Origin: an uncultured Eubacteriales bacterium
GTDB lineage: Bacteria > Bacillota > Clostridia > Oscillospirales > CAG-272
Assembly: GCA_934432675.1 (NCBI GenBank)
Contig: CAKRYT010000004.1
Coordinates: 19,570-83,569, forward strand
Direction of reading: 5' to 3'
Length of the DNA stretch: 64,000 nt
In this document: positions 22,301 to 40,606 of the stretch, piece by piece
Position numbering within the stretch: the first letter of the stretch is position 1
How the letters are laid out: the number at the start of each line of letters is the position of its first letter
Made by a program: the position numbers and the translations under genes
Notes under the pieces: model-generated
The model's database searches: none
Told to the model about the DNA's origin: nothing
Seen by the model: only the letters and a program-made list of their open reading frames with translations

Positions 22301-23420
22301 CACCTCGCTGGACGTCCCGGCACTGCAAACCATCGGCTCCTACGCCATCTACAACACGCGGATTTCGTCCGTTTCCCTGCCCGCCAGCCTGACCTACGTG
22401 GCACCGAACGCCCTCACCACGAAGGCGTACAACTCCACCGACGACAGCCTCGTCCGCCTCACCGAAATCAAGCTGGACAGTGCGAACGCGACCTTCTTCC
22501 TGGATGACGCCGGGGTGCTCTATCAAAGACTCACCGAGAATTCGTATCTGCTCGTCGCCTACCCCTCCGGTAAGACCGACAAGACCTATACGATTCTGGA
22601 TAAGACCGTCCGCATCGAGGCGTATGCGTTTGCCAACAACCCCTATCTTGAAGACGTGACCGTTGCCCGTACCGTGAAATCGATCGGTGACGGTGCCTTC
22701 TACGGCAACACCTCGCTGCACACGCTCCGTTTCCTGTCCGTGACGGCACCCACACTGGAAAGCCATTACTCCGGTGCGGCGGTGAACGGCTGGTCGTACA
22801 AGAACTTCGTGTACGACTTCGCGGACACCGACAAAGCCCCGCACCTGACCGTCTCGGTCCCGAAGAATGCAGCAGGTTACGACTCCTTCCTCTGGACAGC
22901 GTATATCGGCAACGCGGAGCACACGGACGTCATCTCCATGACCGACGGTACCGCCGCCCTGAATGAAAGCATCAATCGTCTCCCCGCGACCGTTACGCTC
23001 GCGGATGCGGAGACGGTGGACCGCCTCGAACGGATGTATAACGCTACCTCCGCCGATCAGAGAGTCTTCATCGAGAATTACGCCAAACTGCAAAACGCCA
23101 TCGCCACCGTACAGCGTCTCCGCGCCGAGCAGGGCGGTGACACGCCGGAGCCCCCGACGCCGGATACCCCGACGGAGCCGGCGAAGACGGACGGTATGCC
23201 TGTTTATGCCATCGTCCTCATCGTCGTGGGTGCCGTCGTGGTGCTCGCGGGTGTCGGTCTCGCCGTGTGGTTCTTCGTCGTGAAGAAACGCAAAGGCGCG
23301 GATGCCGCGGGGTCGGAACAAACGGCCGCCTCCGACGACTCCGACGACTCCGACGCTCCCGATCATTCCGATGCCGCGTCCACCGAAGAAACGAAAGGAG
23401 AGGACAACGATGAAAAATAA
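16377..23420 (+). CDS. Cell-envelope subtilisin-like (S8) serine protease with PA insert, Big_2 domains, BspA-type LRR array and C-terminal TM anchor (2,347 aa)
   Basis: Signal peptide MKNRFTHFLCVCLVMVMALQLMILPTFAA.
Catalytic triad motifs: VVAVLDTGLD (Asp codon 17013), HGTHVAG (His codon 17226), GTSMACP (Ser codon 18180).
PA-like insert GKIAIIKRGVTTFEEKVQIAAAKGAVGAIIYNN.
Two Ig-like Big_2-type segments at about 19.84-20.29 kb.
LRR units of the IP.gV..Ig..AF..C..L type at about 20.38-22.74 kb.
C-terminal Pro/Thr linker, TM helix YAIVLIVVGAVVVLAGVGLAVWFFVV and KKRK stop-transfer. No LPXTG. Confidence 0.9.
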   Translation: MKNRFTHFLCVCLVMVMALQLMILPTFAAMLSDEDFLNAFPALKDLVADRLTASGLNANKYEQSLSGKDLGVYEPTDRVNAVIKLPGESILSLATSVGMSAADYVRSSEGQAKIAEMTAAQNEAIRRLGDSISDVKHRYTTLFSGFSCTTEYQNLAKIEGLFVGSTAIIGEKYISDKQDSTATDNALNAYGTGIYNSSNAGYTGKGMVVAVLDTGLDYTHTAFQRLPEGTLKLTKDDIEELFPYLAAASLNTSGRWNETYYSDKVVYMYDYADKDTDVYPVNDHGTHVAGIISGKDDKITGVAIDSQLAIFKVFGNKDAGAETEDILAALSDAVLLGVDVINMSLGSSCGFSRAADEEGVNEVYDAVRAAGINLIVAASNSHSSAKGSNAGDTNLTTNPDSMTLGSPATYDSSLAVASVLGAKTHYLFANGKYPVYLTKAVKGGKDIEFYNMLLDGRSSAQFDYVLVPGVGNESSYTDIDVTGKIAIIKRGVTTFEEKVQIAAAKGAVGAIIYNNVSGTISMSITTATLPTCSISMDAGAYFVANPTGTLHFGAGNLAGPFMSDFSSWGPNADLVLNPDVTSYGGDITSAVRGGYDVFSGTSMACPNLAGSAALVRQYVKAKYPTYTDSEVTALVNCLLMSTASILRNEANNPYSPRKQGSGLADAERAIKTGAYLYVEGSDKAKLSLGDDPQKTGKYTLTFRLKNITGNTLSYNLKTYTMTETVSTDEKTVAEQAYMLSPTIRYSVEGGRLTGETVTVLGYTEATITAEITLSDADRTYIESHFANGMYVEGFCTLTNNEGDADLTIPYLAFFGDWTKAPILDVTAFEEGKEAKDSSILEDEKLKADVYATIPMVGFYSGNEISYYFMCKPAFILAKGYEAPATLEEYCALTTSKDGNFMIKYISAGLLRNAKRVHMTIVDPVTGNVIFEKTAENCRKSYYNGNQTGGYVEVDFDASAAGLANNTKYVFNMSCELDWEGEQNNLRRDFSFSFYIDDEAPVVDMDQTALRVERDAEGNIERYLLDLYVYDNRFLSGYFMSTFAEKDANGVAIDPEAVIEGFIPVDDMVAGTSNKVTIDLTSVWHKLKDGATPGSKNIEFTLYDYAKNKTVVDLTLEKSVVDTVNIKNGRKSTEKGDEIVFNLKPYQQINLLATKYLVTAPKEAYYSDFLWSSSDDAVATVQDGVVTTLKNGEAVITVATRDGRSAAQVTIKCTGTASNTDIPISGLTLNSTRISLVRGESYELYATYAPYNATTLPTLVWDAYNSPYVTLTPDPENPYHCTVFAKQSGSAIVTAKAQGTLFSATCSFGIAEEFEYLGQYLKSYTGRGDADGVVEIPADKGVTRIYRLAFYNNKDIRKVIIPEGVEEIEYGAFYGCENLEEIVLPSTCKQLDEWSFGYCESLKTINLGNVQTICQLAFYSDKALEALDLSNCHTICDRAFSFCTSLQSVDISTVGQIGRFCFVGCTGLEELKTSDKNKIADYAFAMCSSLRSLTLYAAYVGENAFYYCSGLTDVVFASDVAEIDDAGFYYCSALTNVSFKGTCRYIGAYAFTNCSALTSVYVPAGCEYIGDFAFAGCRAVSAVTFSADANIRSVGRNPFYLVFVENFVVEDGSKYMTARDGILYDKNMTRLILSPFARSIVGLSLPDSVRTIGDYALSYVYSILSVNLNGVTEIGEGAFMGSGVQTVYPGTALTTIGDYAFASCDRLELGGIPAGVTSIGEYAFAQSSLSGRLELPASLTSLGAYAFAQNEGITSVTVPAGVATIGEGAFAECTALTSVTLAEGVGTIGDFAFIGDAALTSVTLPASLGAIGKGAFAACKGLRTVALPAGLTEIADYTFYNATSLDALTLPEAVTSIGDFAFFGDEKLTGLDFASVTSVGNYAFMGTALTTLDADAVETVGNYAFARTHLTSVRLPAATDIGAYAFAEAKELTSLSLDRAVHIGEGAFARATGLTAVSLPACETIGDLAFAYAGSLTSLDVPALQTIGSYAIYNTRISSVSLPASLTYVAPNALTTKAYNSTDDSLVRLTEIKLDSANATFFLDDAGVLYQRLTENSYLLVAYPSGKTDKTYTILDKTVRIEAYAFANNPYLEDVTVARTVKSIGDGAFYGNTSLHTLRFLSVTAPTLESHYSGAAVNGWSYKNFVYDFADTDKAPHLTVSVPKNAAGYDSFLWTAYIGNAEHTDVISMTDGTAALNESINRLPATVTLADAETVDRLERMYNATSADQRVFIENYAKLQNAIATVQRLRAEQGGDTPEPPTPDTPTEPAKTDGMPVYAIVLIVVGAVVVLAGVGLAVWFFVVKKRKGADAAGSEQTAASDDSDDSDAPDHSDAASTEETKGEDNDEK
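20380..22740 (+). repeat. BspA-type leucine-rich-repeat (LRR_5-like) coding array inside the S8 protease gene (approximate bounds)
   Basis: Successive units of roughly 23-25 aa, such as IPEGVEEIEYGAFYGCENLEEIVLPSTCKQLDEWSFGYCESLKTINL and VTLPASLGAIGKGAFAACKGLRTVALPAGLTEIADYTFYNATSL. Confidence 0.75.
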
Positions 23421-26590: not shown

Positions 26591-26621
26591 AACCTCCCGA
26601 CGAAACGTCGGGAGGTTTTTT
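26591..26621 (+). terminator. Rho-independent terminator of the plus-strand operon
   Basis: Stem ACCTCCCGACG / CGTCGGGAGGT, loop AAA, then TTTTTT. It starts 17 nt after the stop at 26574. Confidence 0.85.
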
Positions 26622-26705: not shown

Positions 26706-26737
26706 TAAAAAGCAGGGCTGCCTTTTGGCAGCCCTGC
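26706..26737 (-). terminator. Rho-independent terminator of the minus-strand operon
   Basis: On the minus strand, stem GCAGGGCTGCC / GGCAGCCCTGC, loop AAAA, then TTTTTAATT. It lies 28 nt after the stop of the 1,713-aa gene. Confidence 0.85.
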
Positions 26738-26764: not shown

Positions 26765-29700
26765 TTATGCCTGTTCTTCGGCTGCCGGAGCGGTTGTTTC
26801 GGTAATGGTCGCCACCCCACCGGTGATCGTCACGGTATAGTTCTTCTCGTCGCTGGTTTTCAGCGTATACACGCCGTTCTCCGCGTCGTAGTTGCATTCC
26901 GTAATGAGCAGGATGGTGCTGGTTTCCTTCCCGTCCTTTTCCGTCGTGACGGACATGAGCAGGATTGTGTTATCGGGGAGAACGTCCACGAAGCCCTTGC
27001 CGTCCGCCGTGTACGCGGTGGTCGCCTCAATGACCGTCACCGTCGCGCTCTCAAAGAGCGGTAACGGCTTGTTCTTTTCTTCCGTCGTCTCACCGGACGT
27101 GGTCCCACCGGACGTGGTCCCACCGGACGTGGTCTCACCGGACGTGGTCTCACCGCCCTCTTTCCCGGTGCCCTCTTCCAGGCTGCCGGAAGACTTCTCG
27201 ACGAGCGTCAGCTGATAGTAGTAGGTCTTGGCCCCTTCACCCTCGCCTCTGACGATGTAGTAGATTTTCCCGTTGTTCATGATGATGTTCGAGGCGGGGA
27301 CCTCCGCACCGTCCTTCGTAAGACCGAAGGAGTAGTAAGAGCCTACGGGATACCCGATATCGGACGCGATCACACGGTTAACGGTCACGACATATCCGTC
27401 GTTTGCCGGCACTGTCTCCTCGCGGAGCAATGCATAGATGCTGTACCCGTTCGTTTTGAATGCCGACATCGTTCTGGCCATGAATATCATCGTGTACCGG
27501 TACCCGTCTCCACCCGTGAAGGAGGCCCGATAAACGCCGGAGGCAAGCGGTACGACCTCTGTCTTTTCCAGTTTTTCAATCAGCGTCCCGTCGCTGAGCA
27601 GGAGACTTGCAGACTCACCGAAGGTGGCGTTCATATACCGCTCTTCGACCGAGCCGTCCTGCTTGTAGACGGTGCAGACCGTAATGGTACCGTAGGTGTT
27701 CTTTAACTGGCTCGCGTACTTCGACCCCATCATCGAATAGATGTAGTAGAGATAGTAGAGGTAGGTGTACGAGGGCATCACGTTGATGTTGGAGAGCCCG
27801 GTAACTTCATAGGTGCTCTTGTTCGCGGTCCCGACACCGTCACCCTCGTAGTGAATGGTGATGTCAAAGCGGAAGTTGTACACCATGAAGTACATTTTGG
27901 AAACACCGTCTACGGTCTCTCTGACCACAGTGCAGTCATAGGTATCGTTGCCGATCGTGACCGTGCCGCTGACCGAGAAGTTCTGCCCGCCGGTCGGGGC
28001 AAAGGTCAGAGTGAGCGTCGGCAGGATGTTATCCTTATCCACCTGCACCGGGTAGTAGTCCTTGGTCGCATCCGCACGGACAAAGTTGATGGCAAAGCCG
28101 TCGTTCTTATAGTAGGTATGGTTGCCGTAGGACTTGACGTCGCTCATCTCGCCGAAACTATCATCCTTCACATAACCGTAGCGGTTCTTGTCGGTAGCGT
28201 TCTCGTCGAGGTAATACAGCGTCACGATGTCGTTTTCGTCGACCGTGTAGTAATATTTGACACTGTTGTTGAAGATGGCAAAGCCGTACTGCGTGAACAG
28301 GAGCGAGTCCAGTTCGGTCGTGTAGTACGCGACTGCCTCGTATTCCTGAGGTGTTGCCGTCCCGCGTTCGGTGTCGTAGACGTAGATATATGCCTGCGTG
28401 CCGCTCGTGTTGGCATAATAGAGCAGATGCTCGGTGATGAGTGAGTAGGTACCCGTCTCCACTGCACCGTTCGTGAGATACTTGGTGGCGGAGCCGTCAC
28501 CGTTCAGGCGCAGGACGGACCAGTCTTTTTCGTTGACATACGCGTAAACGACTTCCTCGTGCACGGTGTGGAGAGCATTCAGCGTGTTGCTGCCGCTCGT
28601 CACGGTACCGAACTTCACGGTGATCGTGTGCTCTGCGGCACCGTTCCGGTAGGTGATCGTCGCTCTGTCGCCGTTCACCGTATAGGTGGCGGCGGCGTCG
28701 ACTGCCTCCCGCACGTAATCTTCTCCGTCTTTCACCATACGGAAGATGGTCACGTGACCGAGACCGTCGAACTCTGCATACAACCCGTCAAAGACCTGGT
28801 TGTCGATCATGACGTAGACCCTGCCGTATTCACTACCGCGCAGTGCACAGGTATCGCCCGCGAGGAGGAAGCAGAGGGTCCCCTTGGAAGCGGACAGTTG
28901 CACCTCGTCTCCGTTCTTCTGGTACATACCCATGTACGACTCATGCCCCTCTCCGTCGGAGTAGGTCGCCGCGAGGCCGAAGCCGTCCAGTTTCAGCACA
29001 CCGTCTTTGGTGTTGGTGGAGCGGAAAGTGCCGGCATACGCCGCGTCATAGCGGAAGAAGTATCTGCCGGTCGAGATGTCACGCGTGATGTACTCGAATG
29101 AGTAGAGCGGCGTGTCGGTCCCCTCTTCCGTCAGGTCGGAGGCGAAGGAATAGATCGGGAAACCGGTGAGCGAGGTCCTGCCCGTCTTGGTCTGCGTCCC
29201 GTGGTATGCGGTCGTGGTCTTGTTCTCACCGTCCGTGGTGATGACATAGTAGAAGTAACCCTTTACCGGGTCCTCGACGAGGTACCCCTCCTGAGACACC
29301 TTACCGTCCTTGCCGACCTCATAGTAAGCCGTGGCGGTCTTGTCCGCGACCGTAAAGGTCTTTGCATCGGTATCAAGCGTAAAGTAGCGGTTGCGGTCGG
29401 CGAACGATACCACCGCCACATTCCCGCTCCGCTTGTAAACGCCCAGTTCGGCCTTTTTTCCCTTGATGCGGTAAACGGCAAAGCCGGATACCAGCGTCAG
29501 TTCGCTCCCGTCCGCACCGGTGTACTTCTCGGTGTTGTCCACCGTCTCCACGCCGTCGTTGTAGTTGAACCAGAAGTGGACACTGTACTGCGTAAGGTCG
29601 GAGTTCAGCATCAGGGCGCAGGACTTCACTTTGGAGAAGTCTACCGGCTCTGTAAATACGGGGCTGACGTCGGCGGGTACCGTAAAGGTCTCGGTGACCG

Positions 29701-31906
29701 TCAGGAGGTAGAGTCCGGTCGTTGCGTCGTAGGTCAGCGTGCCCGCGGCGATCTTGTGATACTGCTTTTCTTTGTTGCGGCCGTACACGGTGACCGTCGA
29801 ACGGTCTGCCGTCTCGAACACGAAGAGCGGTGCATAATAGGTGCCTTCGGCATCCTTATAGTAATACTCTGCGTAGTACGCCGAGAGTCTGTCGACGACC
29901 GTAACCTTGGTCGAAGTCGTGCCGCTCTCCGGTTTGTCAGGGTCGACCAGCACGTCCTGCGTCTTGACCGTGAGCATGAACTTGTAGGTCACACCGTTCT
30001 CGGTGAAGGTCAGGATCGTCCCGCCGAAGGCGGAGGTCGCCGTGGTGAAGAAACCGCTGTGTGCGACACCGTCCGTCCCCGTATAGGTGGCGGTCCGGAT
30101 GCCGTCCAGTCGCAGCGTCGAGCCGTCCGTGAGCGTATAGGTAACGTCCATCGCGGCGTTGTAAATCATGTAGCCCAGTTTACCGTTCAACTCCATGAGG
30201 CGGAGTACCCCGGCAACCTTCCCCTGCGAGATCAGGGTGATGGTGCGTGCCTCGGCGTCGTACGTATAATAGATGCTGGTTATACCGGCGGACGGCGAGT
30301 TGTAGGCGGCGATCCCAAAGCCGTTCAGCGTCAGGTCACCGACCGGATTGTCGTTTGCGTCGGTAGAGACGACGATCGTGTCGTTGTCGATGACGAAACA
30401 GTAGATTCTGCCGAGGGCGACTTCCTCCTCGTTCCGCACCTGGAACGCCGTCCGTCTCTCGCCGTTGACCTTGACGGTCCCGACGGCGATGGTCAGCGTC
30501 TTACCGGCGAGCGGGCCGGAGGTAAAGGTCACGACGTAGTTCCCTTCGTCGTCAAAGACGTAGGTACCCGTGGATGCGACGGCAATGCCGTCTGCACTCT
30601 CCTTCTGGGAGTAGGTCACACCGTTTGCGTCGTCGAAGGCAAGATTGATGAGTTCGTTGAGCCCCTTGCCTGCGCCCATCTCGTAGAGCGTCGCGTTGAA
30701 ATCGGCGCGCTTACGGTTCCTGAACAGGAACGTGGTACCGTCGGCGTTCAGTTGTGCAATCGGGAAATCGGCGGGGACGTTGTTGAAGGCGATGGTCGAG
30801 TTCCGGATCCTGCCCTTGAAGTAACGACCGCCGCGGCAAAGGTAGACGACACCTGCCTCTCCCTCTGCAACGTATATCATATCCGCGCCGCCGAAGAGGT
30901 CGGTGTAACCGCGGCTCCACACGGCGTAGAGCGTCACGTTCTCCTCGGGGGTGATCTTCTCGACCTCGGGTGCATCGGCGTTAGCCAGGGCAGCATCCAT
31001 GACGTGAGAATAGTACACCATCTTACCGCCCGGCGTGAGCGACCAGCCTTCCAGGTAGTAGCCCTCCTTCGTATAGGTGACAAAGGGCAGTTCCGTCTCC
31101 ACACCGTAGTACACGTTCGCGGACGTTCTCTGATTTTGGGAGCCGTCCGGGTAGTTGGAGGCGAACGTCAGCGTGCGACCCTCGCGGTCAAAATAGAGGC
31201 GGAACGCGTTTTTCGTCGCGTCGTCCCCGAGCACGAGCTGTGTGACGCTATCGGGCTTGGTCACGGCCGTGAAACCGGTAAAGGTACGTTTTTCCGTCAC
31301 GGCGTCGCCGATATAACCGTATTCCGTGATGAGATCCGCCTCGCGGTCGTAGCCGTCCCGCGTGGTGTTCTGCTTGAACACTTCGATCGTGTACTTGATC
31401 TTGTACTTCGCGACGAGCGTGATGTCTTCATTGCCCATCACGGCATCGGCGGCGAGGGGCTCACCGTCGAGGAGCCACATGCCGAAAAGGCAGTCCGCCT
31501 TTTCGGGTACCAGTGCCGCGATCTTCTCGAAGATGACGTCCCCGGCGGTGAGCGACACCTTTGTCTGTGCGAGGGTGCCGCCGGCAGGATCCAGCGTCAA
31601 CTCATAGAGTTTGTTCCACTTGGCATAAACGGTCATATCCGTCTCCGTCGTAACGGAGGTAATACGCTCGCCGGTGCCGTTCTTGTCCCCGTACCAGCCG
31701 CCGAAGACGTAACCGTCACGCGTCGGCTCCGCGGGAGTGTAGGGTTTCCCCTTCGCAATCTGCGCGACGGTACTCGTCCCGTCGTCGATCACCATAGTGA
31801 GCGATACCGTATCGGTTGCGGGGCCATCCTTCTTGTCACAGGCGACAAGGAGACCGAGCAGCAGTACGAGTACGCTGACCAGCAGGAGCAAATGTGTCTT
31901 TTTCAT
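26765..31906 (-). CDS. Very large lipoprotein (1,713 aa): N-terminal Flg_new repeats plus about 1,250 aa with no domain I can recognise
   Basis: Lipobox LLGLLVAC|DKK. Flg_new-type repeats occupy aa about 31-330 (GYVFGGWYGDKNG...MTVYAKW, ...ITLVAKY, GYYLEGWSL...VTLYAVW). The rest is beta-rich (Tyr/Thr/Gly/Val) with a recurring L-x-L-[DN]-G-x-G-x-A-x-Y motif. A TSG-rich linker precedes a final domain of about 100 aa. Confidence 0.8.
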   Translation of the reverse strand: MKKTHLLLLVSVLVLLLGLLVACDKKDGPATDTVSLTMVIDDGTSTVAQIAKGKPYTPAEPTRDGYVFGGWYGDKNGTGERITSVTTETDMTVYAKWNKLYELTLDPAGGTLAQTKVSLTAGDVIFEKIAALVPEKADCLFGMWLLDGEPLAADAVMGNEDITLVAKYKIKYTIEVFKQNTTRDGYDREADLITEYGYIGDAVTEKRTFTGFTAVTKPDSVTQLVLGDDATKNAFRLYFDREGRTLTFASNYPDGSQNQRTSANVYYGVETELPFVTYTKEGYYLEGWSLTPGGKMVYYSHVMDAALANADAPEVEKITPEENVTLYAVWSRGYTDLFGGADMIYVAEGEAGVVYLCRGGRYFKGRIRNSTIAFNNVPADFPIAQLNADGTTFLFRNRKRADFNATLYEMGAGKGLNELINLAFDDANGVTYSQKESADGIAVASTGTYVFDDEGNYVVTFTSGPLAGKTLTIAVGTVKVNGERRTAFQVRNEEEVALGRIYCFVIDNDTIVVSTDANDNPVGDLTLNGFGIAAYNSPSAGITSIYYTYDAEARTITLISQGKVAGVLRLMELNGKLGYMIYNAAMDVTYTLTDGSTLRLDGIRTATYTGTDGVAHSGFFTTATSAFGGTILTFTENGVTYKFMLTVKTQDVLVDPDKPESGTTSTKVTVVDRLSAYYAEYYYKDAEGTYYAPLFVFETADRSTVTVYGRNKEKQYHKIAAGTLTYDATTGLYLLTVTETFTVPADVSPVFTEPVDFSKVKSCALMLNSDLTQYSVHFWFNYNDGVETVDNTEKYTGADGSELTLVSGFAVYRIKGKKAELGVYKRSGNVAVVSFADRNRYFTLDTDAKTFTVADKTATAYYEVGKDGKVSQEGYLVEDPVKGYFYYVITTDGENKTTTAYHGTQTKTGRTSLTGFPIYSFASDLTEEGTDTPLYSFEYITRDISTGRYFFRYDAAYAGTFRSTNTKDGVLKLDGFGLAATYSDGEGHESYMGMYQKNGDEVQLSASKGTLCFLLAGDTCALRGSEYGRVYVMIDNQVFDGLYAEFDGLGHVTIFRMVKDGEDYVREAVDAAATYTVNGDRATITYRNGAAEHTITVKFGTVTSGSNTLNALHTVHEEVVYAYVNEKDWSVLRLNGDGSATKYLTNGAVETGTYSLITEHLLYYANTSGTQAYIYVYDTERGTATPQEYEAVAYYTTELDSLLFTQYGFAIFNNSVKYYYTVDENDIVTLYYLDENATDKNRYGYVKDDSFGEMSDVKSYGNHTYYKNDGFAINFVRADATKDYYPVQVDKDNILPTLTLTFAPTGGQNFSVSGTVTIGNDTYDCTVVRETVDGVSKMYFMVYNFRFDITIHYEGDGVGTANKSTYEVTGLSNINVMPSYTYLYYLYYIYSMMGSKYASQLKNTYGTITVCTVYKQDGSVEERYMNATFGESASLLLSDGTLIEKLEKTEVVPLASGVYRASFTGGDGYRYTMIFMARTMSAFKTNGYSIYALLREETVPANDGYVVTVNRVIASDIGYPVGSYYSFGLTKDGAEVPASNIIMNNGKIYYIVRGEGEGAKTYYYQLTLVEKSSGSLEEGTGKEGGETTSGETTSGGTTSGGTTSGETTEEKNKPLPLFESATVTVIEATTAYTADGKGFVDVLPDNTILLMSVTTEKDGKETSTILLITECNYDAENGVYTLKTSDEKNYTVTITGGVATITETTAPAAEEQA
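27084..27155 (-). repeat. In-frame 15-nt tandem repeat encoding (E/G)TTSG x4-5
   Basis: The plus strand reads CACCGGACGTGGTC[C/T] four times in a row (27091-27150) with partial units at both ends. The translation is ETTSGETTSGGTTSGGTTSGETT. Confidence 0.9.
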
Positions 31907-31968: not shown

Positions 31969-34764
31969 TTAATCGATGGGGGTCCACTGCGCCGTGAGTG
32001 TCGTTCCCTCCGCCTGTGCGGAGAGTTCTTCGGTCGTCACCGTGGTGCCGTCCGGGCGCAACCAGCCGCTGAATGTGTAGCCGGGGCGCGTGGGGGAGGC
32101 GATCGGGGCGATAACCTCCGACAGTCTCCTGTCGTTGAGGACCGTCACGCCCGACACGGTCACCGACACAACGTAACCGCCCTCGTCGGCGAGGTCCGCG
32201 TGCAGGACGACCGGACGGTTGGAGGAATTCCAACGCATATTCCAGTCGCTCATGTCCGTTCCGTCCTCCACGTAGAAGGTAGCGTTGTAGCAACCGTAGA
32301 ACGCGTTACCGCCGATTACGGCGACCCCTTTCGGGATGTTCAGTGTCCGCAAGCCGGCGAGCCCCTTGAATGCGTACTTGCCGATGTTCGTGAGCGTCCC
32401 CGGCAGTTGCAGTTCCGTCACGTTTCCGAGACCGTAGAAAGCAAAGTCTCCGATGGTCTCCACGGCTGTGCCGAGCCGCAGGGTCGTGATGGCGGTGCAC
32501 TGATAGAAGGCACTGCCGCCGATCGTCCGCATCGTGTCGGGCAGATCCAGCGATTGCAGGCCCGTACACTTATAGAAGGCATAACTACCGATGCTCTCGA
32601 CACGGTTGCCCAGCGTCACCGTTCGGAGACCCGGGCAGAACGCGAATGCGAGGTTGGGGATTTCCAGCACGGTATCCGGCAGGGTGATGGATTCCAGGGT
32701 CGAGCAGCGATAGAAGGCAGCGTTGCCGATGCTCGCGACCTTGTCGCCGAGGAGGATTTCCCGCAGACTGATGCAGCCGAAGAAGGCGGCATTGCCGATG
32801 GCGAGCCCCTCGGAACTTTCATCCAGCATCATATCGGAGAAGTCCAGTTTCGTCAGCGATTCGCACTTATAGAACGCCGATTGCCCGATGGTTTCGAGGC
32901 AGTAAGGCAGGGTCACCTGCCCGAGCCCCGTGCAATTGTAAAACGTAAAACTTTTCAGTTCGGTGAGGTACTCGTTCAACGTGACCGAGAAAAGGTCGGT
33001 ACAGTTATAGAAGGCGCCCTCGCCGATATAGCGGTACCCGCTCAGATTGGCGAGTGAGCGGAGCGTCGTGCAATCCTTGAATGCGTAGTCGGCGATCCCC
33101 GCCACGTTTCCCGGCTTGTTTTCAGAGAGTGTCACCTCTCCGAGATTGGTATCTTTCTTATAACCGACGACCCAGTTGCCCGCATAGATGACGTTGTTTT
33201 CGTCGGGCGTTTTCCAGAGCCGCGTTTCGGCGAACGCCTGGAAGCCGATGCGCGTGACGGTCTTCGGCACGATGGAGCGCAGGGAGTTGTTCGCGAGTTT
33301 CGTACAACCGTAGAAAACGTAGGCGTCGATCTCCTGCAATCCGTCGTTCAACACCAGTTTGGTGAGTTCCTCACACAGGTTGAAGGCGGACATCTGAATA
33401 CGCAAAAGCCCGTTACCGGCGCGGAATTCCGCCAATTTGGAACATTGCTGGAAGGCGACCATACCCACCGTCTGCACGGATGCGGGCAGCGTCACGGATT
33501 CGAGTTTGGACGCCCGACGGAAGCAGGCATCGGCGATGCCGACCGTGTCGCTGCGGAATCCCGTGGCATCGATCTTGGTATAGGCATCCAGATTTTTCAC
33601 GGCGACCAGCCAACGCCCGGCGTAGACGAAATCCATGGCGGCGGCATAGAGTGCCGTCCCGTTGAACACCTTGGCACCGACGTGCGTCACACTGTCGGGG
33701 ATGGACACGTCGGTAAGTGCCCTGCAATCGTAAAAGCAACTGTCGTCGATGTCGATGACGCCATCGGGGATCACGACACCGTTCAAAAGAATGTCTTTAT
33801 AAAAGCAATGGTTACCGATCTTTTGCAGTGCGCTCCCTTCGGCGAAGGTCACCGAGGTGAGTTTTGCATTGTCACTGAACGCATATTCGCCGAGCGACGT
33901 GACCCCGCGTCCGACGGTGACTCCGGTGAGTTCTGTCATGGCGGAATAGGCATACGGTCCGATACGCACCGTGGCGTCGGGGACCCGCACCTCCGTCAGG
34001 GCGGCACCGGCAAAAGCAGACTCGCCGATGGTTCTGATACCGTCGTGGAGTGTGATCGCCGAGAGTGCCCGACAATAGGTAAAGCAGAAGTCCGGGATGG
34101 CGGAGACCCGCTCGGGGACATTCACCGTTGCGAGTGCGCGACAGCCCTGGAAAGCGGAGACCCCGATGGAGGTCACGCTGTCGGGCAGCGTCACGGAGAC
34201 GAGTTTGGAGCAGTTGTAGAACGCGCTCGCACCGATGGTACGCACCCCGTCTTCAATGACCACGCTCTCAACGTCACGGTTGCCCTTGAAGGCATTGTCC
34301 GCGATGGCGGTCACGGGTTTGCCGCGGTAGGTACCCTCAATGCGGACGTCACCGCCCGCAGTCCCTGCGCGGAGGATCCGATACTCGGAATTGGCGTTAT
34401 AGAGTTCGTAGATACAGCCGGACTCATAGTCGCGGTGGAAGGCGAGCGTACCGGACCACGGCGAGACCTGGTCGTTGTCGGCACCGCCCGTTGCCATCAC
34501 GCGGATTTCGTAGTCACCGACGTCGAGTCCGGAGAGTTTGTATTTGGTCTTCTCCGTCGTGTTCGTAACGGTCTCTCCGCTGCCCAGATTCTTCACCTCT
34601 ACGGTGTAAGACCTCGCGAAGTCCACGGCGTTCCAGGAGAGTTCATTCTCCGCATCGACCGCGAGCCCCGCGGGGGCGTTGAGCCCGTCGCCGCAGGAGG
34701 TCAGCACAAGGAGGAAAACGAGCAGTGTCAGGGTCGTCAGGAACAAGATTTTCATTCGTTTCAT
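31969..34764 (-). CDS. Lipoprotein with Fn3-like domain, BspA-type LRR array and C-terminal Flg_new repeat (931 aa)
   Basis: Lipobox LLVLTSC|GDG. Fn3-like segment APAGLAVDAENELSWNAVDFARSYTVEVKN...GDYEIRVMATG. The LRR array covers aa about 148-810. The C-terminus is PTRPGYTFSGWLRPDG...TLTAQW. The start codon overlaps the upstream vWA gene stop (ATGA, 34761-34764). Confidence 0.85.
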   Translation of the reverse strand: MKRMKILFLTTLTLLVFLLVLTSCGDGLNAPAGLAVDAENELSWNAVDFARSYTVEVKNLGSGETVTNTTEKTKYKLSGLDVGDYEIRVMATGGADNDQVSPWSGTLAFHRDYESGCIYELYNANSEYRILRAGTAGGDVRIEGTYRGKPVTAIADNAFKGNRDVESVVIEDGVRTIGASAFYNCSKLVSVTLPDSVTSIGVSAFQGCRALATVNVPERVSAIPDFCFTYCRALSAITLHDGIRTIGESAFAGAALTEVRVPDATVRIGPYAYSAMTELTGVTVGRGVTSLGEYAFSDNAKLTSVTFAEGSALQKIGNHCFYKDILLNGVVIPDGVIDIDDSCFYDCRALTDVSIPDSVTHVGAKVFNGTALYAAAMDFVYAGRWLVAVKNLDAYTKIDATGFRSDTVGIADACFRRASKLESVTLPASVQTVGMVAFQQCSKLAEFRAGNGLLRIQMSAFNLCEELTKLVLNDGLQEIDAYVFYGCTKLANNSLRSIVPKTVTRIGFQAFAETRLWKTPDENNVIYAGNWVVGYKKDTNLGEVTLSENKPGNVAGIADYAFKDCTTLRSLANLSGYRYIGEGAFYNCTDLFSVTLNEYLTELKSFTFYNCTGLGQVTLPYCLETIGQSAFYKCESLTKLDFSDMMLDESSEGLAIGNAAFFGCISLREILLGDKVASIGNAAFYRCSTLESITLPDTVLEIPNLAFAFCPGLRTVTLGNRVESIGSYAFYKCTGLQSLDLPDTMRTIGGSAFYQCTAITTLRLGTAVETIGDFAFYGLGNVTELQLPGTLTNIGKYAFKGLAGLRTLNIPKGVAVIGGNAFYGCYNATFYVEDGTDMSDWNMRWNSSNRPVVLHADLADEGGYVVSVTVSGVTVLNDRRLSEVIAPIASPTRPGYTFSGWLRPDGTTVTTEELSAQAEGTTLTAQWTPID
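32330..34325 (-). repeat. BspA-type LRR coding array (approximate bounds)
   Basis: Units such as VTLPDSVTSIGVSAFQGCRALATVNVPERVSAIPDFCFTYCRALSAITL, read from the translation. Confidence 0.7.
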
Positions 34765-37700
34765 TGCTCCGATCCCCCTTTCTTGCGATGTGCCTTTTGC
34801 CTGTGCTCGCGCACGAGTTCATGCGGCCATTTGAACTTGAATTTCCGAACGGCAACATCTGCGAGGAACAGGACAAGTGCCAGGATCATGAACACATATC
34901 TCGGGTCAAAGGTCTTCTGTACTGCCGTCACAAAGTTGGCGAAGATTTCTTTTGGCTCGTCGTTGTCCTCGATGACGGCCCCGTTGCCGCCCTCTGCCAG
35001 TCCGGTGAGGAACGCCGCGAGTTCCCGGTCCGTCGGGGTGCCGGCGATGTCGTACTCCCCGGAGTACGAGAACGCGCAGTAGGTCTTGCTTTCGGCGAGG
35101 ACATTGCCCGCCGCATCCACCTTCTGCAAGGCGATTTCATACACGCCGGGGGTCTTGATGACGAAACCGCAACGGCTGTAATGGTTGGTCGCGCCGAGGG
35201 CGGAGGTAACGTAACAGTCGAGGGCCGTCAGGCGCGTCCCCTCCGGTGCCGCCGTCACCGTATCGAGCGACAGGGGCTGCCCCGTCGCGTCTGCCATGTT
35301 CTTTAAGTAGCCGACGATACGTTCCCCGTCGTCGAGCGACGAAAAGATACTGAGTTGATTCGTGTAGTTATCCCGCGTCAGTTGCATGGAGATCTTTTCC
35401 CTCACGGATTCAAGCGGCATGGTTGCGGTCACCGCATTGCGGATGAACTGCCTGCCGGAGCCGTTGTTCTGTTCCGTCACGGAGAGAAAATCCGAAGACC
35501 ACGTACCGTTCAGGTCACACATGAAACTACCGACGTTACCTTTTCCGTACCGCCACTGGGCATACAGCGGAACACCGTAGTTACTCACAAGCACCAGGTC
35601 GGCACCGTCCTTCACCTTCACACCGAAGAAACCGTCAATGGTCACGGTCATTTTCGAAGTCTTTTTGCCGTCTACCGTGGCGAGTTCAATGCCGTTCAGG
35701 AGCGGCGAGAAGGTGTCGTTCGCAATCACGTCGTATTTGAGCGGATTGCCGTCCTTGTCCTTGTAGTTGACCTCATCCACCTTGGCGGCATGGAGGTCCT
35801 CCTGCATGGAGTCGGTGATGCCGCCCCCCTCCGCACTGGTGTACAGTTTACCGCCGCCGAGGGTGCACGCCTCCTGCATCTGCTTGGCGGCGTCGGAGCC
35901 CTTCTCCACGCCGATGCCGACGACGGAATAAGTAATACCGTTACTGTTATGGAATTGCCGGATATAATCGTGGTATTCATCCTTCTGGTCCTCGGGCACA
36001 AGACCGTCCGTCACGATAATGACGTGGCGCACCGCCACGTCCATGGAAAGGAGTGCGCGGCTCGCGGTCTCGATCGGCCCCGGGAAAACGGTGCCGCCCG
36101 TAGGTCCGAGTTCGAGCGTTTCGACGATCGCCCGATCGATCTTGGCGGTTTCGGAACGCGGTGTCAGCCCGAGCCGGATCTCATAATCGGTGTCCAGGGT
36201 CATAAGGCCGAAATAGTCTCTCTCGGTCAGTTTGTCAAGGCACCCTCTCGCGCCTGCGAGTGCAAGTTCGTAATAGGTGTTGCCCTTGTCGTCCTTTGCG
36301 CCCATGGAGCCGGAGCGGTCCACGATCACGATGAGTGCCGTAGGGGGGGTGTAGTCGATGGCCTGCACCGGCATGATCTCTTGGAGGACCTTGCCGAATT
36401 TCCCCATGTCTTCACGGTTGTAGGCGTGGGCGACGTACTTGTCGTCTTCCCCGTTCTCGCCGGGCACCACGTCGGCACCGCCGACGGTGAAGAGACCGCC
36501 GCCGTACGTGCCGACGTAGTCGCGGAGGAGTTCCTGGAAACCTTCCGGCATCTCCGCCGCCTTGACGTTATTGAGGATAATCTGGTCGTACACACGCATC
36601 TCGTCCATCGTCCGCGGCACGGTGTTATCGGTCGTGATATTCTTGACCGTGACGTCAAACGGATCGTCCCCCTCCGAGAGGAGTGCTTTCAACGCCTCAG
36701 ACTCCCCGTCCTTGTGTTCGAGGATGAGGACCTTGTCGAAGTGTTCCAGATTAAGATACGAGTAATAAACGTTGTTCTCGGTCAGCATATCCCGTCCGCC
36801 CGCATCGGCACCGTCGCCGCCGGACGTCCCCTTCCCGGACAGGAGCCGGAAGGAGAGGGAGTGCAGACCCGCACCGGTGAACGTGTACTGAAAAGTCACG
36901 TTCTGCGTACCAGCACCGACGGACACATCCTGCGTTTCTATGAGCGTACCGTTGTCGTAAAACTCCACCGTGGCAGTGCCCGCAGTGCTTGCGTGCAAGG
37001 TCACGCCGATCGGGCAGTTCGTGCCCGGGGTCACGTGGTAGTCCGGCAGGACGGCACCCACCAGCTGCATATTCACGCCGCCGAAGGAGGAGGGCACGTT
37101 GGCGACGTCCACACCGATGCCCTTTGCACTGACGCTGCGGATGACGTTCATCGCCGCCTCGTCCGTCTCTTTCCCGTCCGTGACGAGCACGATGCGCGCC
37201 GTCTCCGGGTGCGTAAAGAGGGTGGAGGTGTAAGTCAGCGCGGCGGCGATGTCCGTCGCCGTGGTGTCCGGCCGTTCTGCCGACCGGTAACGGTTCATCA
37301 TCTTTTCCACCGAGATCTTATCCGTCATTTCCACGGCATAGACCTGGTCGTAACCGAAAGTGACGATACCGATACTGTAACCGTCATACTGCCCCCGACG
37401 GAGGACCGTCCTGACGAATTCGTCTCGCGCGGCACTTGCCTGTTCCTCGGTGTCCGAGGCATCCACCAGAAGGATGATCTGGTTTTCCTTGTTGGGAATC
37501 TCGTAAGTAAAGAAGGTGCCCGCCATGGTCAGCACCGCGAGTGCAAACACGATGAGGTGCAGGACGATGGAGGTCACGCGGTTCCTGTTCTTCCGATACT
37601 TTTTGGAGAGGCGGAAATACAGGAGTGCCGTCAGCCCGAGGCCGAGCAGGAAGACAAGGAGGAGAAGCGGGTATGAAAAATGAATTCTGAAATGTACCAT
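34761..37700 (-). CDS. Membrane protein with two vWA domains (BatB-like), 979 aa
   Basis: N-terminal TM pair with the basic loop SKKYRKNRNR.
First vWA beginning IILLVDASDT.
Central region FDKVLILEHKDGESEALKALL...YDQIILNNV...GGGLFTVGG, tentatively class-I glutamine-amidotransferase-like.
Second vWA with a complete MIDAS start, LIVIVDRSGSMG...GGT...VIIVTDG.
C-terminal TM FMILALVLFLADVAV plus a basic tail.
RBS AGGAGG 6 nt before the ATG. Confidence 0.85.
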   Translation of the reverse strand: MVHFRIHFSYPLLLLVFLLGLGLTALLYFRLSKKYRKNRNRVTSIVLHLIVFALAVLTMAGTFFTYEIPNKENQIILLVDASDTEEQASAARDEFVRTVLRRGQYDGYSIGIVTFGYDQVYAVEMTDKISVEKMMNRYRSAERPDTTATDIAAALTYTSTLFTHPETARIVLVTDGKETDEAAMNVIRSVSAKGIGVDVANVPSSFGGVNMQLVGAVLPDYHVTPGTNCPIGVTLHASTAGTATVEFYDNGTLIETQDVSVGAGTQNVTFQYTFTGAGLHSLSFRLLSGKGTSGGDGADAGGRDMLTENNVYYSYLNLEHFDKVLILEHKDGESEALKALLSEGDDPFDVTVKNITTDNTVPRTMDEMRVYDQIILNNVKAAEMPEGFQELLRDYVGTYGGGLFTVGGADVVPGENGEDDKYVAHAYNREDMGKFGKVLQEIMPVQAIDYTPPTALIVIVDRSGSMGAKDDKGNTYYELALAGARGCLDKLTERDYFGLMTLDTDYEIRLGLTPRSETAKIDRAIVETLELGPTGGTVFPGPIETASRALLSMDVAVRHVIIVTDGLVPEDQKDEYHDYIRQFHNSNGITYSVVGIGVEKGSDAAKQMQEACTLGGGKLYTSAEGGGITDSMQEDLHAAKVDEVNYKDKDGNPLKYDVIANDTFSPLLNGIELATVDGKKTSKMTVTIDGFFGVKVKDGADLVLVSNYGVPLYAQWRYGKGNVGSFMCDLNGTWSSDFLSVTEQNNGSGRQFIRNAVTATMPLESVREKISMQLTRDNYTNQLSIFSSLDDGERIVGYLKNMADATGQPLSLDTVTAAPEGTRLTALDCYVTSALGATNHYSRCGFVIKTPGVYEIALQKVDAAGNVLAESKTYCAFSYSGEYDIAGTPTDRELAAFLTGLAEGGNGAVIEDNDEPKEIFANFVTAVQKTFDPRYVFMILALVLFLADVAVRKFKFKWPHELVREHRQKAHRKKGGSEQ

Positions 37701-37712
37701 TGTTCCGCCTCC

Positions 37713-39710: not shown

Positions 39711-40606
39711 GATACGGTACCTCGTTTCAAAAGCTCGGAGAAGAGCTGCCGCTCAATCGGCTTTTCGCAGTTGAGGGCAATGAACCCCGCACCGCGCTTT
39801 TTGCAGAAATTGCCAATGTCATCGTAGAAAGCGGTGACGGCCTCACGGAATGCCTGCTGCATGGATTTGTTGATGCGGAGTTTCATGTTGCGGGCGTCTG
39901 CCATGTCCACGGACTCCGCGTCGATCAGGTTGATCCTGTCCGTATAGGTAGGGTCGAGTTCATCCGGGGAATAGACCTGCATGAGCAGGATCTGTTTCTT
40001 TTTGTAAACCAGGTAATCGACGCCTTTTTTCCAGTCGTCGTTTGAGAAGAAGTCGGAGATAATCACCGTCAGCCCGTCACCCGTCCCGGTATTCGGATTG
40101 GAGATGATGGCGCGGGAAATCTCCGCTTCACCGTCGAATTCGATCCGATCGAGCGTCTTCATCGCACGGAAGAATGCGGTCTTCCCGACGATGGTGCCGA
40201 AAGGATTTTCCGCCTTGCCCCCCCGAATCAGATGGTACGATACCTTGTCCATATTGTGGATGGCGAGGTATCCCATGGCGGCGGCGGCGGCAATGGCGTA
40301 CGCGCCCTTGTCCGGATTGACCTTCCCCATGGAGCCCGAGCAGTCGATGAAGATCTGCACGTGCATTTGTCTTTCATCGGTGAACAGTTTGATAAAGTAC
40401 TTCTCAAAACGGCTGTATAGATTCCAGTCGATGCGGCGGATATCGTCTCCCAGCATATACTCGCGGTAATCGGCGAATTCCACGGTCTGCCCGTAGGTGT
40501 TGACCAGGTGCTTGCCGCCGAAGTAGCCGCCGAGATCCTTACGCAGGTTAAACGCAAGTGCCTCCAAACGACTGAAAAACGCGTCGTTCAAATAAGAAGC
40601 TTTCAT
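39707..40606 (-). CDS. DUF58-family protein (vWA-like, MoxR partner)
   Basis: FADYREYMLGDDIRRIDWNLYSRFEKYFIKLFTDERQMHVQIFIDCSGSMG is the DUF58 core motif. 299 aa. The start overlaps the MoxR stop by 1 nt (TAATG at 40604-40608). Confidence 0.9.
   Translation of the reverse strand: MKASYLNDAFFSRLEALAFNLRKDLGGYFGGKHLVNTYGQTVEFADYREYMLGDDIRRIDWNLYSRFEKYFIKLFTDERQMHVQIFIDCSGSMGKVNPDKGAYAIAAAAAMGYLAIHNMDKVSYHLIRGGKAENPFGTIVGKTAFFRAMKTLDRIEFDGEAEISRAIISNPNTGTGDGLTVIISDFFSNDDWKKGVDYLVYKKKQILLMQVYSPDELDPTYTDRINLIDAESVDMADARNMKLRINKSMQQAFREAVTAFYDDIGNFCKKRGAGFIALNCEKPIERQLFSELLKRGTVS

What the first reader, a model, noticed from the sequence alone, without database searches (positions are those of the whole stretch)
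26765..31906. 1,713-aa lipoprotein whose central 1,250 aa or so match nothing I recognise but contain a recurring module
Seen:
- After the lipobox and about 300 aa of Flg_new repeats, the protein is Tyr/Thr/Gly/Val-rich with no LRR units.
- The motif [VT]L-x-L-[DN]-G-x-G/R-x-A-x-Y recurs at least four times: DLTLNGFGIAAY (30302-30337), TLRLDGIRTATY (30083-30118), VLKLDGFGLAATY (28961-28999) and VLRLNGDGSATKY (28478-28516).
- 'GTY..' beta-strand starts are also frequent.
- A flexible (E/G)TTSG linker and a terminal domain of about 100 aa follow.

Inference: it may be built from repeats of an undescribed beta-sandwich or lipocalin-like module. As the last gene of the MoxR/vWA operon, it is a candidate client or cargo of that system.
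Basis: partly seen in the sequence, partly recalled or inferred. Interest (0 to 1): 0.6.

Follow-up and report, generated by a model that had tools for sequence, protein, structure and literature searches.

The report
Giant lipoprotein with ten beta modules
This is a real, conserved 1,713-residue surface lipoprotein of uncultured gut Clostridia whose centre is a chain of ten very divergent copies of a small all-beta module absent from the domain databases. It always lies beside a MoxR/vWA operon, a leucine-rich-repeat lipoprotein and usually a large cell-envelope protease, and its function is unknown.

Summary
The motif L-x-L-[DN]-G occurs 4 times against 0.09 expected.

The recurring module is real and larger than reported. 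Profile-profile comparison finds ten divergent ~70-aa modules between aa 407 and 1255, and a module profile finds 9-11 copies in 189 of 209 relatives.

AlphaFold2 models are confident (pLDDT ~89) and all-beta. No Pfam, NCBIfam or PDB-sequence match covers the centre. Foldseek gives only non-superposable hits (TM about 0.1). The single sequence lead is sub-threshold similarity to lipocalin-like PF13648 (best HH probability 71%).

The family has about 200 representatives, nearly all 1.6-1.76 kaa, from uncultured Clostridia and Christensenella-like MAGs. The order MoxR, DUF58, BatA/vWA, 2xvWA, LRR lipoprotein, target is conserved down to about 30% identity. An S8 protease gene usually follows.

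In this window the gene does end its transcription unit, at a strong terminator. A "MoxR client" role is untested, and the export topology argues against direct action.

Verdict: a new variant of a known kind, namely a repetitive surface lipoprotein. Moderate interest.

The parts
26765..31906 (-). Complete gene for the 1713-aa lipoprotein, stop codon included
   Evidence: ORF list and translation. About 110 full-length homologs down to 29% identity.
31838..31906 (-). Signal peptide and lipobox (aa 1-23, LLVAC)
   Evidence: Read directly from the sequence. Cys23 is at least 90% conserved in the family.
30917..31819 (-). N-terminal Flg_new / InlB B-repeat region (aa 30-330)
   Evidence: Pfam PF09479 at 55.7 bits and TIGR02543. 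PDB profile hits to the InlB B-repeat. Flg1-Flg2 hhalign probability 97.3%.
30689..30916 (-). aa 331-406: all-beta lead-in segment before the module array, with no assignable family
   Evidence: AF2 strands with pLDDT 80-89. No significant hhalign match to the modules.
28142..30688 (-). Array of ten divergent ~70-aa all-beta modules (aa 407-1255). Window coordinates: H 30479-30688, G 30167-30379, A 29954-30154, K 29663-29866, B 29342-29539, F 29072-29320, C 28835-29041, E 28595-28822, D 28349-28555, J 28142-28348
   Evidence: Self hhalign. Pairwise sub-profile hhalign, for example A-C 95.9% with E 5e-9. Module alignment. The mixture HMM finds 9-11 modules per protein in 189 of 209 relatives. 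AF2 pLDDT is about 89.
27188..28141 (-). aa 1256-1573: further conserved beta-rich region with one helix (aa ~1380-1398). Any relation to the modules is at most very weak.
   Evidence: AF2 model 2 has pLDDT above 90 here. hhalign to the modules reaches at most 34%.
27080..27187 (-). Disordered low-complexity (E/G)TTSG linker (aa 1574-1609), encoded by a 15-nt tandem repeat at 27083-27155
   Evidence: pLDDT below 50. TRF reports 4.9 copies at 94% match. The region is gapped in more than 40% of homologs.
26768..27079 (-). Conserved C-terminal beta domain (aa 1610-1713), with no family assignment
   Evidence: AF2 places seven strands at aa 1618-1704 with pLDDT above 90. No Pfam hit at E < 0.05.
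26712..26737 (-). Intrinsic terminator 28 nt after the stop codon
   Evidence: An 11-bp stem with 9 G-C pairs followed by TTTTT.
31969..34764 (-). Upstream BspA-type LRR_5 lipoprotein (931 aa, lipobox LTSC). It is the neighbour in all 10 relatives examined.
   Evidence: Pfam LRR_5 E 9e-146. N-terminus. tblastn synteny 10 of 10.
34761..41649 (-). Bat-like genes: MoxR AAA_3 (40606-41649), DUF58 (39707-40606), BatA+vWA (37713-39710), 2xvWA membrane protein (34761-37700)
   Evidence: Pfam. Synteny in relatives. Predicted TM segments.
16377..23420 (+). S8/PA/fn3_5/LRR_5 cell-envelope protease (2347 aa, C-terminal TM anchor). It is convergent here, but lies directly downstream on the same strand in most relatives.
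   Evidence: Pfam. Synteny. C-terminal TM segment.

Best explanation
**What it is.** The gene encodes a conserved, exported, lipid-anchored surface protein of uncultured gut Clostridia.

**Layout, from the membrane outward**
- Flg_new (InlB B-repeat) domains.
- About 850 aa made of ten ancient, very divergent copies of a ~70-aa, seven-stranded beta module. Its consensus is Y-x-G-T-Y ... L-x-L-D-G-x-G-x-A-x-Y ... G-T-Y ... Y-F-x-L ... F-T-h.
- A further beta region of about 320 aa.
- A variable disordered linker.
- A small conserved C-terminal beta domain.

**The module (inferred).** Each module is most likely a compact closed beta domain. It is probably a shortened, very divergent relative of the small lipocalin-like lipoprotein domains PF13648 and PF18692.

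**Function (inferred from context only).** It is most likely an extracellular scaffold or binding component of a conserved envelope locus. That locus also encodes a BspA-like LRR lipoprotein, usually a membrane-anchored S8 protease, and next to it an Opp-type peptide transporter. Two membrane proteins, whose vWA domains the positive-inside rule places outside the cell, may tether or assemble these surface proteins. Cytoplasmic MoxR and DUF58 would act on the vWA proteins rather than directly on the lipoprotein.

**Shown:** the gene, the family, the ten-module repeat, the all-beta confident model, and the synteny.
**Inferred:** lipidation, the barrel fold, the lipocalin relationship, the topology of the vWA proteins, and any physical or functional coupling.
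For: - **Family.** About 110 full-length homologs and 200 representatives at 50% clustering, nearly all 1.6-1.76 kaa with 8-11 module matches each. The lipobox Cys is conserved.
- **Repeat.** Sub-profile hhalign gave A-C 95.9%, B-C 95.2%, H-E 94.5%, A-F 94.1%, A-B 92.7%, G-C 87.9% and C-D 84.4%. The positive control Flg1-Flg2 gave 97.3%, and modules against Flg were not significant. The mixture HMM found 9-11 modules in 189 of 209 relatives.
- **Structure.** AF2 gave pLDDT 88.7 with pTM 0.60 for aa 325-1310 and 88.9 with 0.76 for aa 1150-1713. Both models are all-beta meanders.
- **Contacts.** Pooled-module DCA (Neff 737) recovers the hairpin ladders b1-b2, b2-b3, b4-b5 and b6-b7 seen in the AF2 model. 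It also gives long-range pairs (8,65) and (24/25,65) above a column-shuffled null.
- **Lipocalin lead.** PF13648 was the commonest weak Pfam hit. hhalign against a 109-sequence PF13648/PF18692 profile gave module H 71.5% and module E 66.3%, collinear over 42-56 columns, against 0.1-3% for controls.
- **Synteny.** In ten loci at 28-36% identity, the LRR gene is present in 10 of 10, the vWA genes in 9 of 9, MoxR and DUF58 in 7 of 8, and S8 downstream in 8 of 9 (Pfam labels).
- **Window context.** An Opp operon and the S8 gene sit beside the locus.
- **vWA topology.** The N-terminal TM pair flanks a loop rich in K and R, and there is a C-terminal TM segment. The BatA-like BB0173 protein of Borrelia exposes its vWA domain to the periplasm (PMC5700661).
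Against: - The lipocalin-like link is below every accepted threshold: Pfam 17 bits against a cut-off of 22.4, and HH below 90%. It rests on two related modules.
- The pooled-paralog DCA can mistake module-type-specific residues for contacts.
- pTM of 0.6-0.76 suggests the modules pack into one larger body rather than forming beads on a string.
- Function rests on gene neighbourhood alone. One relative (L005) lacks MoxR and DUF58 at this position, and in this window the S8 gene is inverted.
Confidence: 0.5

Rival explanations
1. The central ~1,250 aa is not a chain of closed modules. Instead it is one large integrated beta superstructure, for example several beta-propellers as in DDB1/CPSF160, with each ~70-100-aa module supplying about two blades.
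For: - The top Foldseek PDB hits for aa 325-1310 are DDB1 and CPSF160, with E down to 1e-9, probability 1.00 and about 1,150 aligned columns. WD40 proteins top the list for aa 1150-1713.
- pTM of 0.60 and 0.76 indicates fixed packing between modules.
- DCA support for the b3-b4 and b5-b6 pairings is weak.
Against: - TM-scores are 0.07-0.11 and rmsd 29-37 A for every DDB1/CPSF160 hit, so not even one propeller superposes.
- No propeller repeat family appears in Pfam. Only single stray weak hits to DUF5050 and DUF5122 were seen among 50 modules.
- 3Di similarity between long antiparallel meanders is expected whatever the fold.
Confidence: 0.2
2. The protein is a direct client or cargo of the MoxR chaperone. 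MoxR and DUF58 would fold it or load a cofactor before or during export.
For: - It lies on the same strand as, and downstream of, MoxR-DUF58-vWA in the window and in 7 of 8 assessable relatives.
- A comparable proposal exists for the large secreted FN3 protein of the bifidobacterial PFNA cluster, which is also encoded with MoxR and DUF58 (PMC8430577).
Against: - MoxR and DUF58 have no signal peptide or TM segment, whereas the target has a Sec/lipoprotein signal and would cross the membrane unfolded.
- One relative keeps the vWA, LRR and target genes without MoxR and DUF58 at this position (L005).
- No interaction data exist.
Confidence: 0.12
3. The protein is an Rhs/YD-repeat-like shell that encloses its C-terminal domain as a toxin or effector.
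For: - The sequence is rich in Tyr, Asp and Gly hairpins of the Y-x-Y-D type.
- Teneurin and Rhs structures appear among the Foldseek hits for aa 1150-1713.
- A separate C-terminal domain follows a linker.
Against: - TM is 0.07-0.09 and probability 0.11-0.28 for those hits.
- There is no RHS_repeat or other Rhs Pfam hit.
- The C-terminal domain is conserved across the family rather than polymorphic.
- The linker is disordered and variable in the family and shows no recognisable cleavage motif.
Confidence: 0.03
4. The protein is a generic adhesin with no functional tie to its neighbours. The synteny would reflect only shared ancestry within one narrow clade.
For: - All full-length homologs come from uncultured Clostridia or Christensenella-like MAGs.
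- Flg_new and LRR surface proteins are abundant throughout this window.
Against: Gene order is retained while protein identity falls to 28-36%. At that divergence, unselected gene order is usually lost; this is general knowledge and was not tested here.
Confidence: 0.15

Closest known systems
Lipocalin_4 (PF13648) and DUF5640 (PF18692) small lipocalin-like bacterial lipoproteins
   Same: - The motifs are collinear: G-T-W/Y strand, h-x-h-x-x-D-G turn, second G-T-W/Y strand, then L-t-h-t.
- Both are all-beta and lipoprotein-associated.
- These families gave the best weak Pfam and HH matches.
   Different: - Scores are below threshold.
- The module is shorter, at about 70 aa against about 90-100, and lacks roughly one hairpin between the first GTY and the LDG turn.
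- The known members retrieved here are 110-250 aa proteins, not ten-fold arrays inside a 1.7-kaa protein.
Bat-type MoxR-DUF58-BatA/vWA operons (Bacteroides fragilis Bat, Borrelia bb0170-bb0176)
   Same: The upstream genes show the same domain set and order: AAA_3 MoxR, DUF58, and BatA N-terminal domain plus vWA. The BatA-like BB0173 protein exposes its vWA domain outside the cytoplasmic membrane (PMC5700661).
   Different: - The described Bat operons carry TPR/SH3 proteins. They do not carry a BspA-like LRR lipoprotein, a 1.7-kaa module-array lipoprotein or an S8 protease.
- Their function is itself unresolved.
Bifidobacterium PFNA cluster (pkb2-fn3-aaa_atp-duf58-tgm)
   Same: A large secreted, repetitive, presumably adhesive protein is encoded next to MoxR and DUF58 in a gut Gram-positive bacterium (PMC8430577).
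   Different: The repeat type differs (FN3). The cluster has a kinase and a transglutaminase instead of vWA, LRR and S8 genes. There is no sequence relationship to the target.
InlB B-repeat / Flg_new surface proteins
   Same: The N-terminal ~300 aa belong to this family. One database source gives a homolog this name (P0073).
   Different: This name covers under 20% of the protein and says nothing about the 1,250-aa centre.
Lactococcal-type cell-envelope proteinase plus Opp system (own knowledge, not tested here)
   Same: An S8/PA/fn3_5 envelope protease and an Opp-type transporter with an SBP_bac_5 protein are encoded together.
   Different: That system has no counterpart of the target, of the LRR lipoprotein or of MoxR/vWA. 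The protease here carries about 1,500 extra aa of LRR_5.

Membership tests
Flg_new / InlB B-repeat-containing protein (PF09479, TIGR02543) | At least one repeat scoring above the curated cut-off | tested here: met
   PF09479 scored 55.7 bits against 27, and TIGR02543 45.2 against 20.95. This applies to the N-terminal region only.
Bacterial lipoprotein (Lgt/Lsp substrate) | Signal peptide ending in a lipobox [LVI][ASTVI][GAS]C | tested here: met
   The N-terminus reads MKKTHLLLLVSVLVLLLGLLVAC. Cys23 is at least 90% conserved. Actual lipidation cannot be tested with these tools.
Lipocalin_4 (PF13648, lipocalin-like) | Pfam score at or above the gathering cut-off | tested here: not met
   The best score in the target was 17 bits against 22.4. 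Among 50 modules, 5 hit weakly, with best E 9.7e-4.
Lipocalin_4 (PF13648, lipocalin-like) | Profile-profile homology at high probability (above 90%) | tested here: inconclusive
   hhalign against a 109-sequence PF13648/PF18692 profile gave H 71.5%, E 66.3% and pooled modules 34-41%. Controls gave 0.1-3%.
Lipocalin_4 (PF13648, lipocalin-like) | Closed up-and-down beta-barrel in three dimensions | not testable with these tools
Beta-propeller (WD40 / DDB1-like) | Structural superposition of at least one propeller; propeller repeat profiles | tested here: not met
   Foldseek TM was 0.07-0.11 and rmsd 29-37 A for the DDB1/CPSF160 hits despite low E-values, and TM was at most 0.17 for the WD40 hits to the second model. 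No propeller family passed in Pfam.
Rhs / YD-repeat shell | RHS/YD repeat profiles; spiral shell superposition | tested here: not met
   No RHS_repeat hit was found. Rhs and teneurin hits had TM 0.07-0.09 and probability at most 0.28.
BspA-type LRR protein | LRR_5 repeats | tested here: not met
   The target has none. The neighbouring genes have many.
Component of a Bat-like MoxR/vWA locus | Same-strand adjacency conserved across distant relatives | tested here: met
   The vWA genes are present in 9 of 9 assessable loci, MoxR and DUF58 in 7 of 8, and the LRR gene in 10 of 10, at 28-36% identity.
Component of a Bat-like MoxR/vWA locus | Physical or functional dependence on MoxR/vWA proteins | not testable with these tools
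   This needs experiments or complex prediction; none was run.

The most novel reading that the evidence does not exclude
The family could be the signature surface subunit of a previously undescribed envelope machine of gut Clostridia. In that reading, cytoplasmic MoxR/DUF58 ATPase activity is transmitted through membrane proteins with extracellular vWA domains. This would assemble, hold or activate a complex of the ten-module lipoprotein, a BspA-like LRR lipoprotein and a giant S8 protease. The complex would feed an adjacent Opp transporter, making the locus a Gram-positive counterpart of a protein utilisation locus, built on a new tandem mini-barrel architecture.
Probability: 0.15. Interest if true: 0.7.

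Novelty: new variant of a known kind. Interest (0 to 1): 0.42.

Why it matters
**Module.** The central module is absent from Pfam and NCBIfam and has no relative detectable by sequence among solved structures. Defining it would annotate about 850 aa in each of roughly 200 protein clusters from human and animal gut metagenomes.

**Bat operons.** The strict linkage to a Bat-like MoxR/vWA operon gives a concrete, testable candidate partner set for operons whose function has been unclear since 1999. The candidates are extracellular vWA domains together with the LRR and module-array lipoproteins and a protease.

**If the lipocalin-like reading holds.** This would be an unusual ten-fold concatenation of a domain otherwise seen in small single-domain lipoproteins.

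Tried and rejected
- **Self-BLASTP** at E < 10 found no internal repeat. The repeats show only at profile level.
- **A four-module HMM** recovered only its own four training modules in the target. It was replaced by pairwise hhalign and a ten-module mixture HMM.
- **An all-against-all sliding-window hhalign** timed out.
The single-protein scan returned five full-length loci plus many Flg_new-only hits.
- **The first AF2 submissions** were too large and were redone with 46 sequences.
- **Foldseek against PDB and BFVD** on whole models gave only low-TM hits to propellers, Rhs and tail fibres. I treat these as generic beta-meander similarity.
- **The module profile against PDB sequences** found nothing, with best E 0.12.
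- **Module-profile hits to aRib LPXTG adhesins** (P0158, P0208, P0230, P0238) match only profile positions 10-35, repeated 8-21 times. I rejected them as short-motif accumulation.
- **Literature searches** found no description of this family.
- **The Rhs-shell and beta-propeller readings** were considered and disfavoured on TM-score and the lack of repeat profiles.
Full report
**1. The observation**

The ORF 26765-31906 (-) is real and encodes 1713 aa. The four motif strings sit at exactly the stated coordinates, at aa 524, 597, 970 and 1131. L-x-L-[DN]-G occurs four times against 0.09 expected, and none of 20,000 shuffles reached four.

Residues 331-1580 are T 11.8, G 9.6, Y 9.0 and V 8.5 %. 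Pfam and NCBIfam recognise only Flg_new/TIGR02543 at the N-terminus and no LRR. A family-profile search of PDB sequences returns only the InlB B-repeat.

The linker (aa 1574-1609) is disordered in the model. It is encoded by a 15-nt x 4.9 tandem repeat at 27083-27155 and is gapped in more than 40% of homologs. The C-terminal ~100 aa form a confident seven-strand domain.

**2. The family**

- The sequence search returned about 110 full-length homologs of 1,630-1,740 aa, down to 29% identity. All carry only PF09479, and one is named "InlB B-repeat-containing protein [Clostridia bacterium]".
- Full-length relatives among species-representative genomes are uncultured Clostridia or Christensenella MAGs.
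- The lipobox Cys23 is at least 90% conserved.
- Conserved length and end-to-end alignment argue for a fixed architecture rather than a labile repeat protein.

**3. The recurring module**

BLASTP sees no internal repeat. Profile-level self-comparison does: motif anchors near aa 427, 529, 602, 699, 880, 975, 1048 and 1136 align with each other in several registers.

Pairwise hhalign of family sub-profiles gave these probabilities:

| Pair | Probability |
|---|---|
| A-C | 95.9% (E 5e-9) |
| B-C | 95.2% |
| H-E | 94.5% |
| A-F | 94.1% |
| A-B | 92.7% |
| G-C | 87.9% |
| C-D | 84.4% |
| Flg1-Flg2 (positive control) | 97.3% |
| Modules against Flg | not significant |

This defines ten modules: H 407-476, G 510-580, A 585-651, K 681-748, B 790-855, F 863-945, C 956-1024, E 1029-1104, D 1118-1186 and J 1187-1255. 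The consensus is Y..D......L.LDG.G.A.Y....G....GTY........T.T....G.

A mixture HMM finds 9-11 copies in 189 of 209 relatives. There is no DNA-level repeat apart from the linker, so the duplication is ancient.

**4. Distribution of the module**

The module profile was run against 1.84 billion representatives and hit 200 proteins at E <= 0.001. Nearly all were 1.6-1.76 kaa with 8-11 matches each. A few longer variants exist, for example P0045 (2,724 aa, 16 matches).

The outliers P0158, P0208, P0230 and P0238 are aRib LPXTG adhesins. They match only a short stretch of the profile many times over. I regard these as motif accumulation, not homology. The module is therefore essentially specific to this family.

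**5. Structure**

| Model | Residues | mean pLDDT | pTM |
|---|---|---|---|
| 1 | aa 325-1310 | 88.7 | 0.60 |
| 2 | aa 1150-1713 | 88.9 | 0.76 |

Both models were built from a 46-sequence alignment and are almost purely beta meanders. Model 2 has one helix near aa 1380-1398.

Foldseek against the PDB gave DDB1/CPSF160 for model 1 and WD40, tricorn, teneurin and Rhs hits for model 2. TM was 0.07-0.11 for the DDB1/CPSF160 hits and at most 0.17 for the model 2 hits, and rmsd was 23-40 A. BFVD gave nothing better; a phage "lipocalin-like" protein appeared at rank 42 with probability 0.90 and TMt 0.24. I read these as generic antiparallel-meander similarity.

As a substitute I ran mean-field DCA on 833 pooled module sequences (Neff 737). 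The top couplings form antiparallel ladders b1-b2, b2-b3, b4-b5 and b6-b7 that agree with the AF2 strands. Seventeen pairs exceed the maximum of a column-shuffled null, including the long-range pairs (8,65) and (24/25,65).

This suggests that each module closes on itself. Module-type-specific residues could mimic such couplings, so the evidence is supportive only.

**6. Relation to known domains**

- Only lipocalin-like families recur among weak hits. PF13648 scored E 0.012 in the target and hit 5 of 50 modules with best E 9.7e-4. PF18692 hit 2 of 50. All scores are below the cut-off.
- I used an invented bait sequence to collect real PF13648 proteins.
- The first five-sequence reference profile built from them gave probabilities of 26% or less.
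- A 109-sequence reference profile then gave module H 71.5% (E 3.6e-5), module E 66.3%, modules B, D, A and K 11-21%, and pooled modules 34-41%. Controls gave 0.1-3%.
- The alignment is collinear: h-x-h-x-x-D-G turn, G-T-W/Y strand, L-t-h-t strand.
- I rate a distant lipocalin-like (calycin-type) origin at about 50-55%. Membership is not established.

**7. Genomic context**

Upstream on the same strand lie the following genes:

- A 395-aa membrane protein (41695-42882).
- MoxR AAA_3 (40606-41649).
- DUF58 (39707-40606).
- BatA+vWA (37713-39710).
- A 2xvWA membrane protein (34761-37700).
- A BspA-type LRR_5 lipoprotein (31969-34764).

A strong terminator follows the target's stop codon (26737-26712). 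The target therefore ends the transcription unit in this window.

Synteny in ten related loci at 28-36% identity (Pfam labels):

| Neighbour | Present / assessable |
|---|---|
| LRR gene directly upstream | 10 / 10 |
| Both vWA genes | 9 / 9 |
| MoxR and DUF58 | 7 / 8 (absent at this position in L005) |
| S8/PA/fn3_5/LRR_5 protease (~2,450 aa) directly downstream, same strand | 8 / 9 |

In four of the annotated relatives, a ~520-560-aa protein and an ~870-aa SBP_bac_5 protein then follow the protease.

In the window the S8 gene (16377-23420, +) is convergent, and a further LRR_5/Flg_new gene lies between it and the target. An 849-aa SBP_bac_5 gene and OppBCDF-like genes lie just before the S8 gene (8635-16033, +).

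**8. Mechanism**

*Shown:* the protein has a lipoprotein signal, as does the LRR neighbour. The S8 protease has a signal peptide and a C-terminal TM anchor. MoxR and DUF58 have neither.

*Inferred:* both vWA proteins have two N-terminal TM segments flanking a loop rich in K and R, plus a C-terminal TM followed by a short tail that is basic in the 2xvWA protein. By the positive-inside rule this puts their vWA domains outside the cell. This matches the periplasmic vWA domain shown for Borrelia BB0173 (PMC5700661).

The most economical model is an extracellular assembly. Membrane-anchored vWA domains would bind or organise the two lipoproteins and the protease. MoxR/DUF58 would act from the cytoplasmic side on the vWA proteins.

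A direct MoxR "client" role for an exported lipoprotein is unlikely on topology. A similar idea has, however, been floated for the FN3 protein of the bifidobacterial PFNA cluster (PMC8430577).

What the module array binds, if anything, is unknown.

**9. Novelty and score**

Noticed in passing
window 43346-53095 (-): A 3,249-aa ORF with 20 LRR_5 (BspA-type) stretches and three Flg_new repeats lies just upstream of the MoxR operon on the same strand.
   Followed up: no
window 8635-16033 (+) and 16377-23420 (+): An Opp-type ABC transporter is followed by a 2,347-aa S8/PA/fn3_5/Big_2/LRR_5 protease with a C-terminal TM anchor. The transporter comprises an 849-aa SBP_bac_5 protein, two permeases and two ATPases with oligo_HPY. 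Together they resemble a cell-envelope proteolysis and peptide-uptake unit.
   Followed up: partly
window 23302-26574 (+): A 1,090-aa LRR_5 + Flg_new ORF overlaps the end of the S8 gene by 119 nt, so its true start is probably further downstream. This gene separates the S8 gene from the target and was not seen between them in the relatives examined.
   Followed up: no
window 26589-26619: A 14-bp palindromic hairpin is flanked by an A-run and a T-run (AAAACCTCCCGACG...CGTCGGGAGGTTTT). It lies between the two convergent genes and looks like a bidirectional terminator.
   Followed up: partly
window 27083-27155: A 15-nt tandem repeat (4.9 copies, 94% match) encodes the (E/G)TTSG linker. The region is gapped in more than 40% of homologs, so it looks like a recent, variable expansion.
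   Followed up: yes
P0158, P0208, P0230, P0238: The module profile gives significant summed scores on aRib-repeat LPXTG adhesins. They match only profile positions 10-35, in 8-21 repeats. This is probably a shared short strand-turn-strand motif rather than homology.
   Followed up: partly
P0045 (2,724 aa), P0170 (1,674 aa), P0143 (1,868 aa): These family variants have 16, 14 and 12 module matches instead of about 10, so the array has expanded in some lineages.
   Followed up: no
L005 687-3851: In the P0073 locus the homolog of the 395-aa membrane protein directly precedes the BatA/vWA gene. MoxR and DUF58 are missing at this position, and the downstream giant gene has LRR_5 and Flg_new but no S8 domain.
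   Followed up: no
window 34761-39710 (-): Both vWA proteins have two N-terminal TM segments around a K/R-rich loop and one C-terminal TM. By the positive-inside rule this places about 560 and 870 aa of vWA-containing sequence outside the cell. The 979-aa protein also has a weak GATase1_like hit.
   Followed up: partly
window 31969-34764 (-): The LRR lipoprotein gives far-below-cutoff NCBIfam matches to adhesin HupY/LrrG (E 1.7e-53) and to the Mycoplasma gliding protein Gli349 (E 3e-35). These probably reflect shared repeat units only.
   Followed up: no
window 60853-62724 (+): A 623-aa fusion of ODP/metallo-beta-lactamase, flavodoxin, flavin reductase and rubredoxin-like domains. This is a flavodiiron-type oxygen/NO detoxification protein typical of strict anaerobes.
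   Followed up: no
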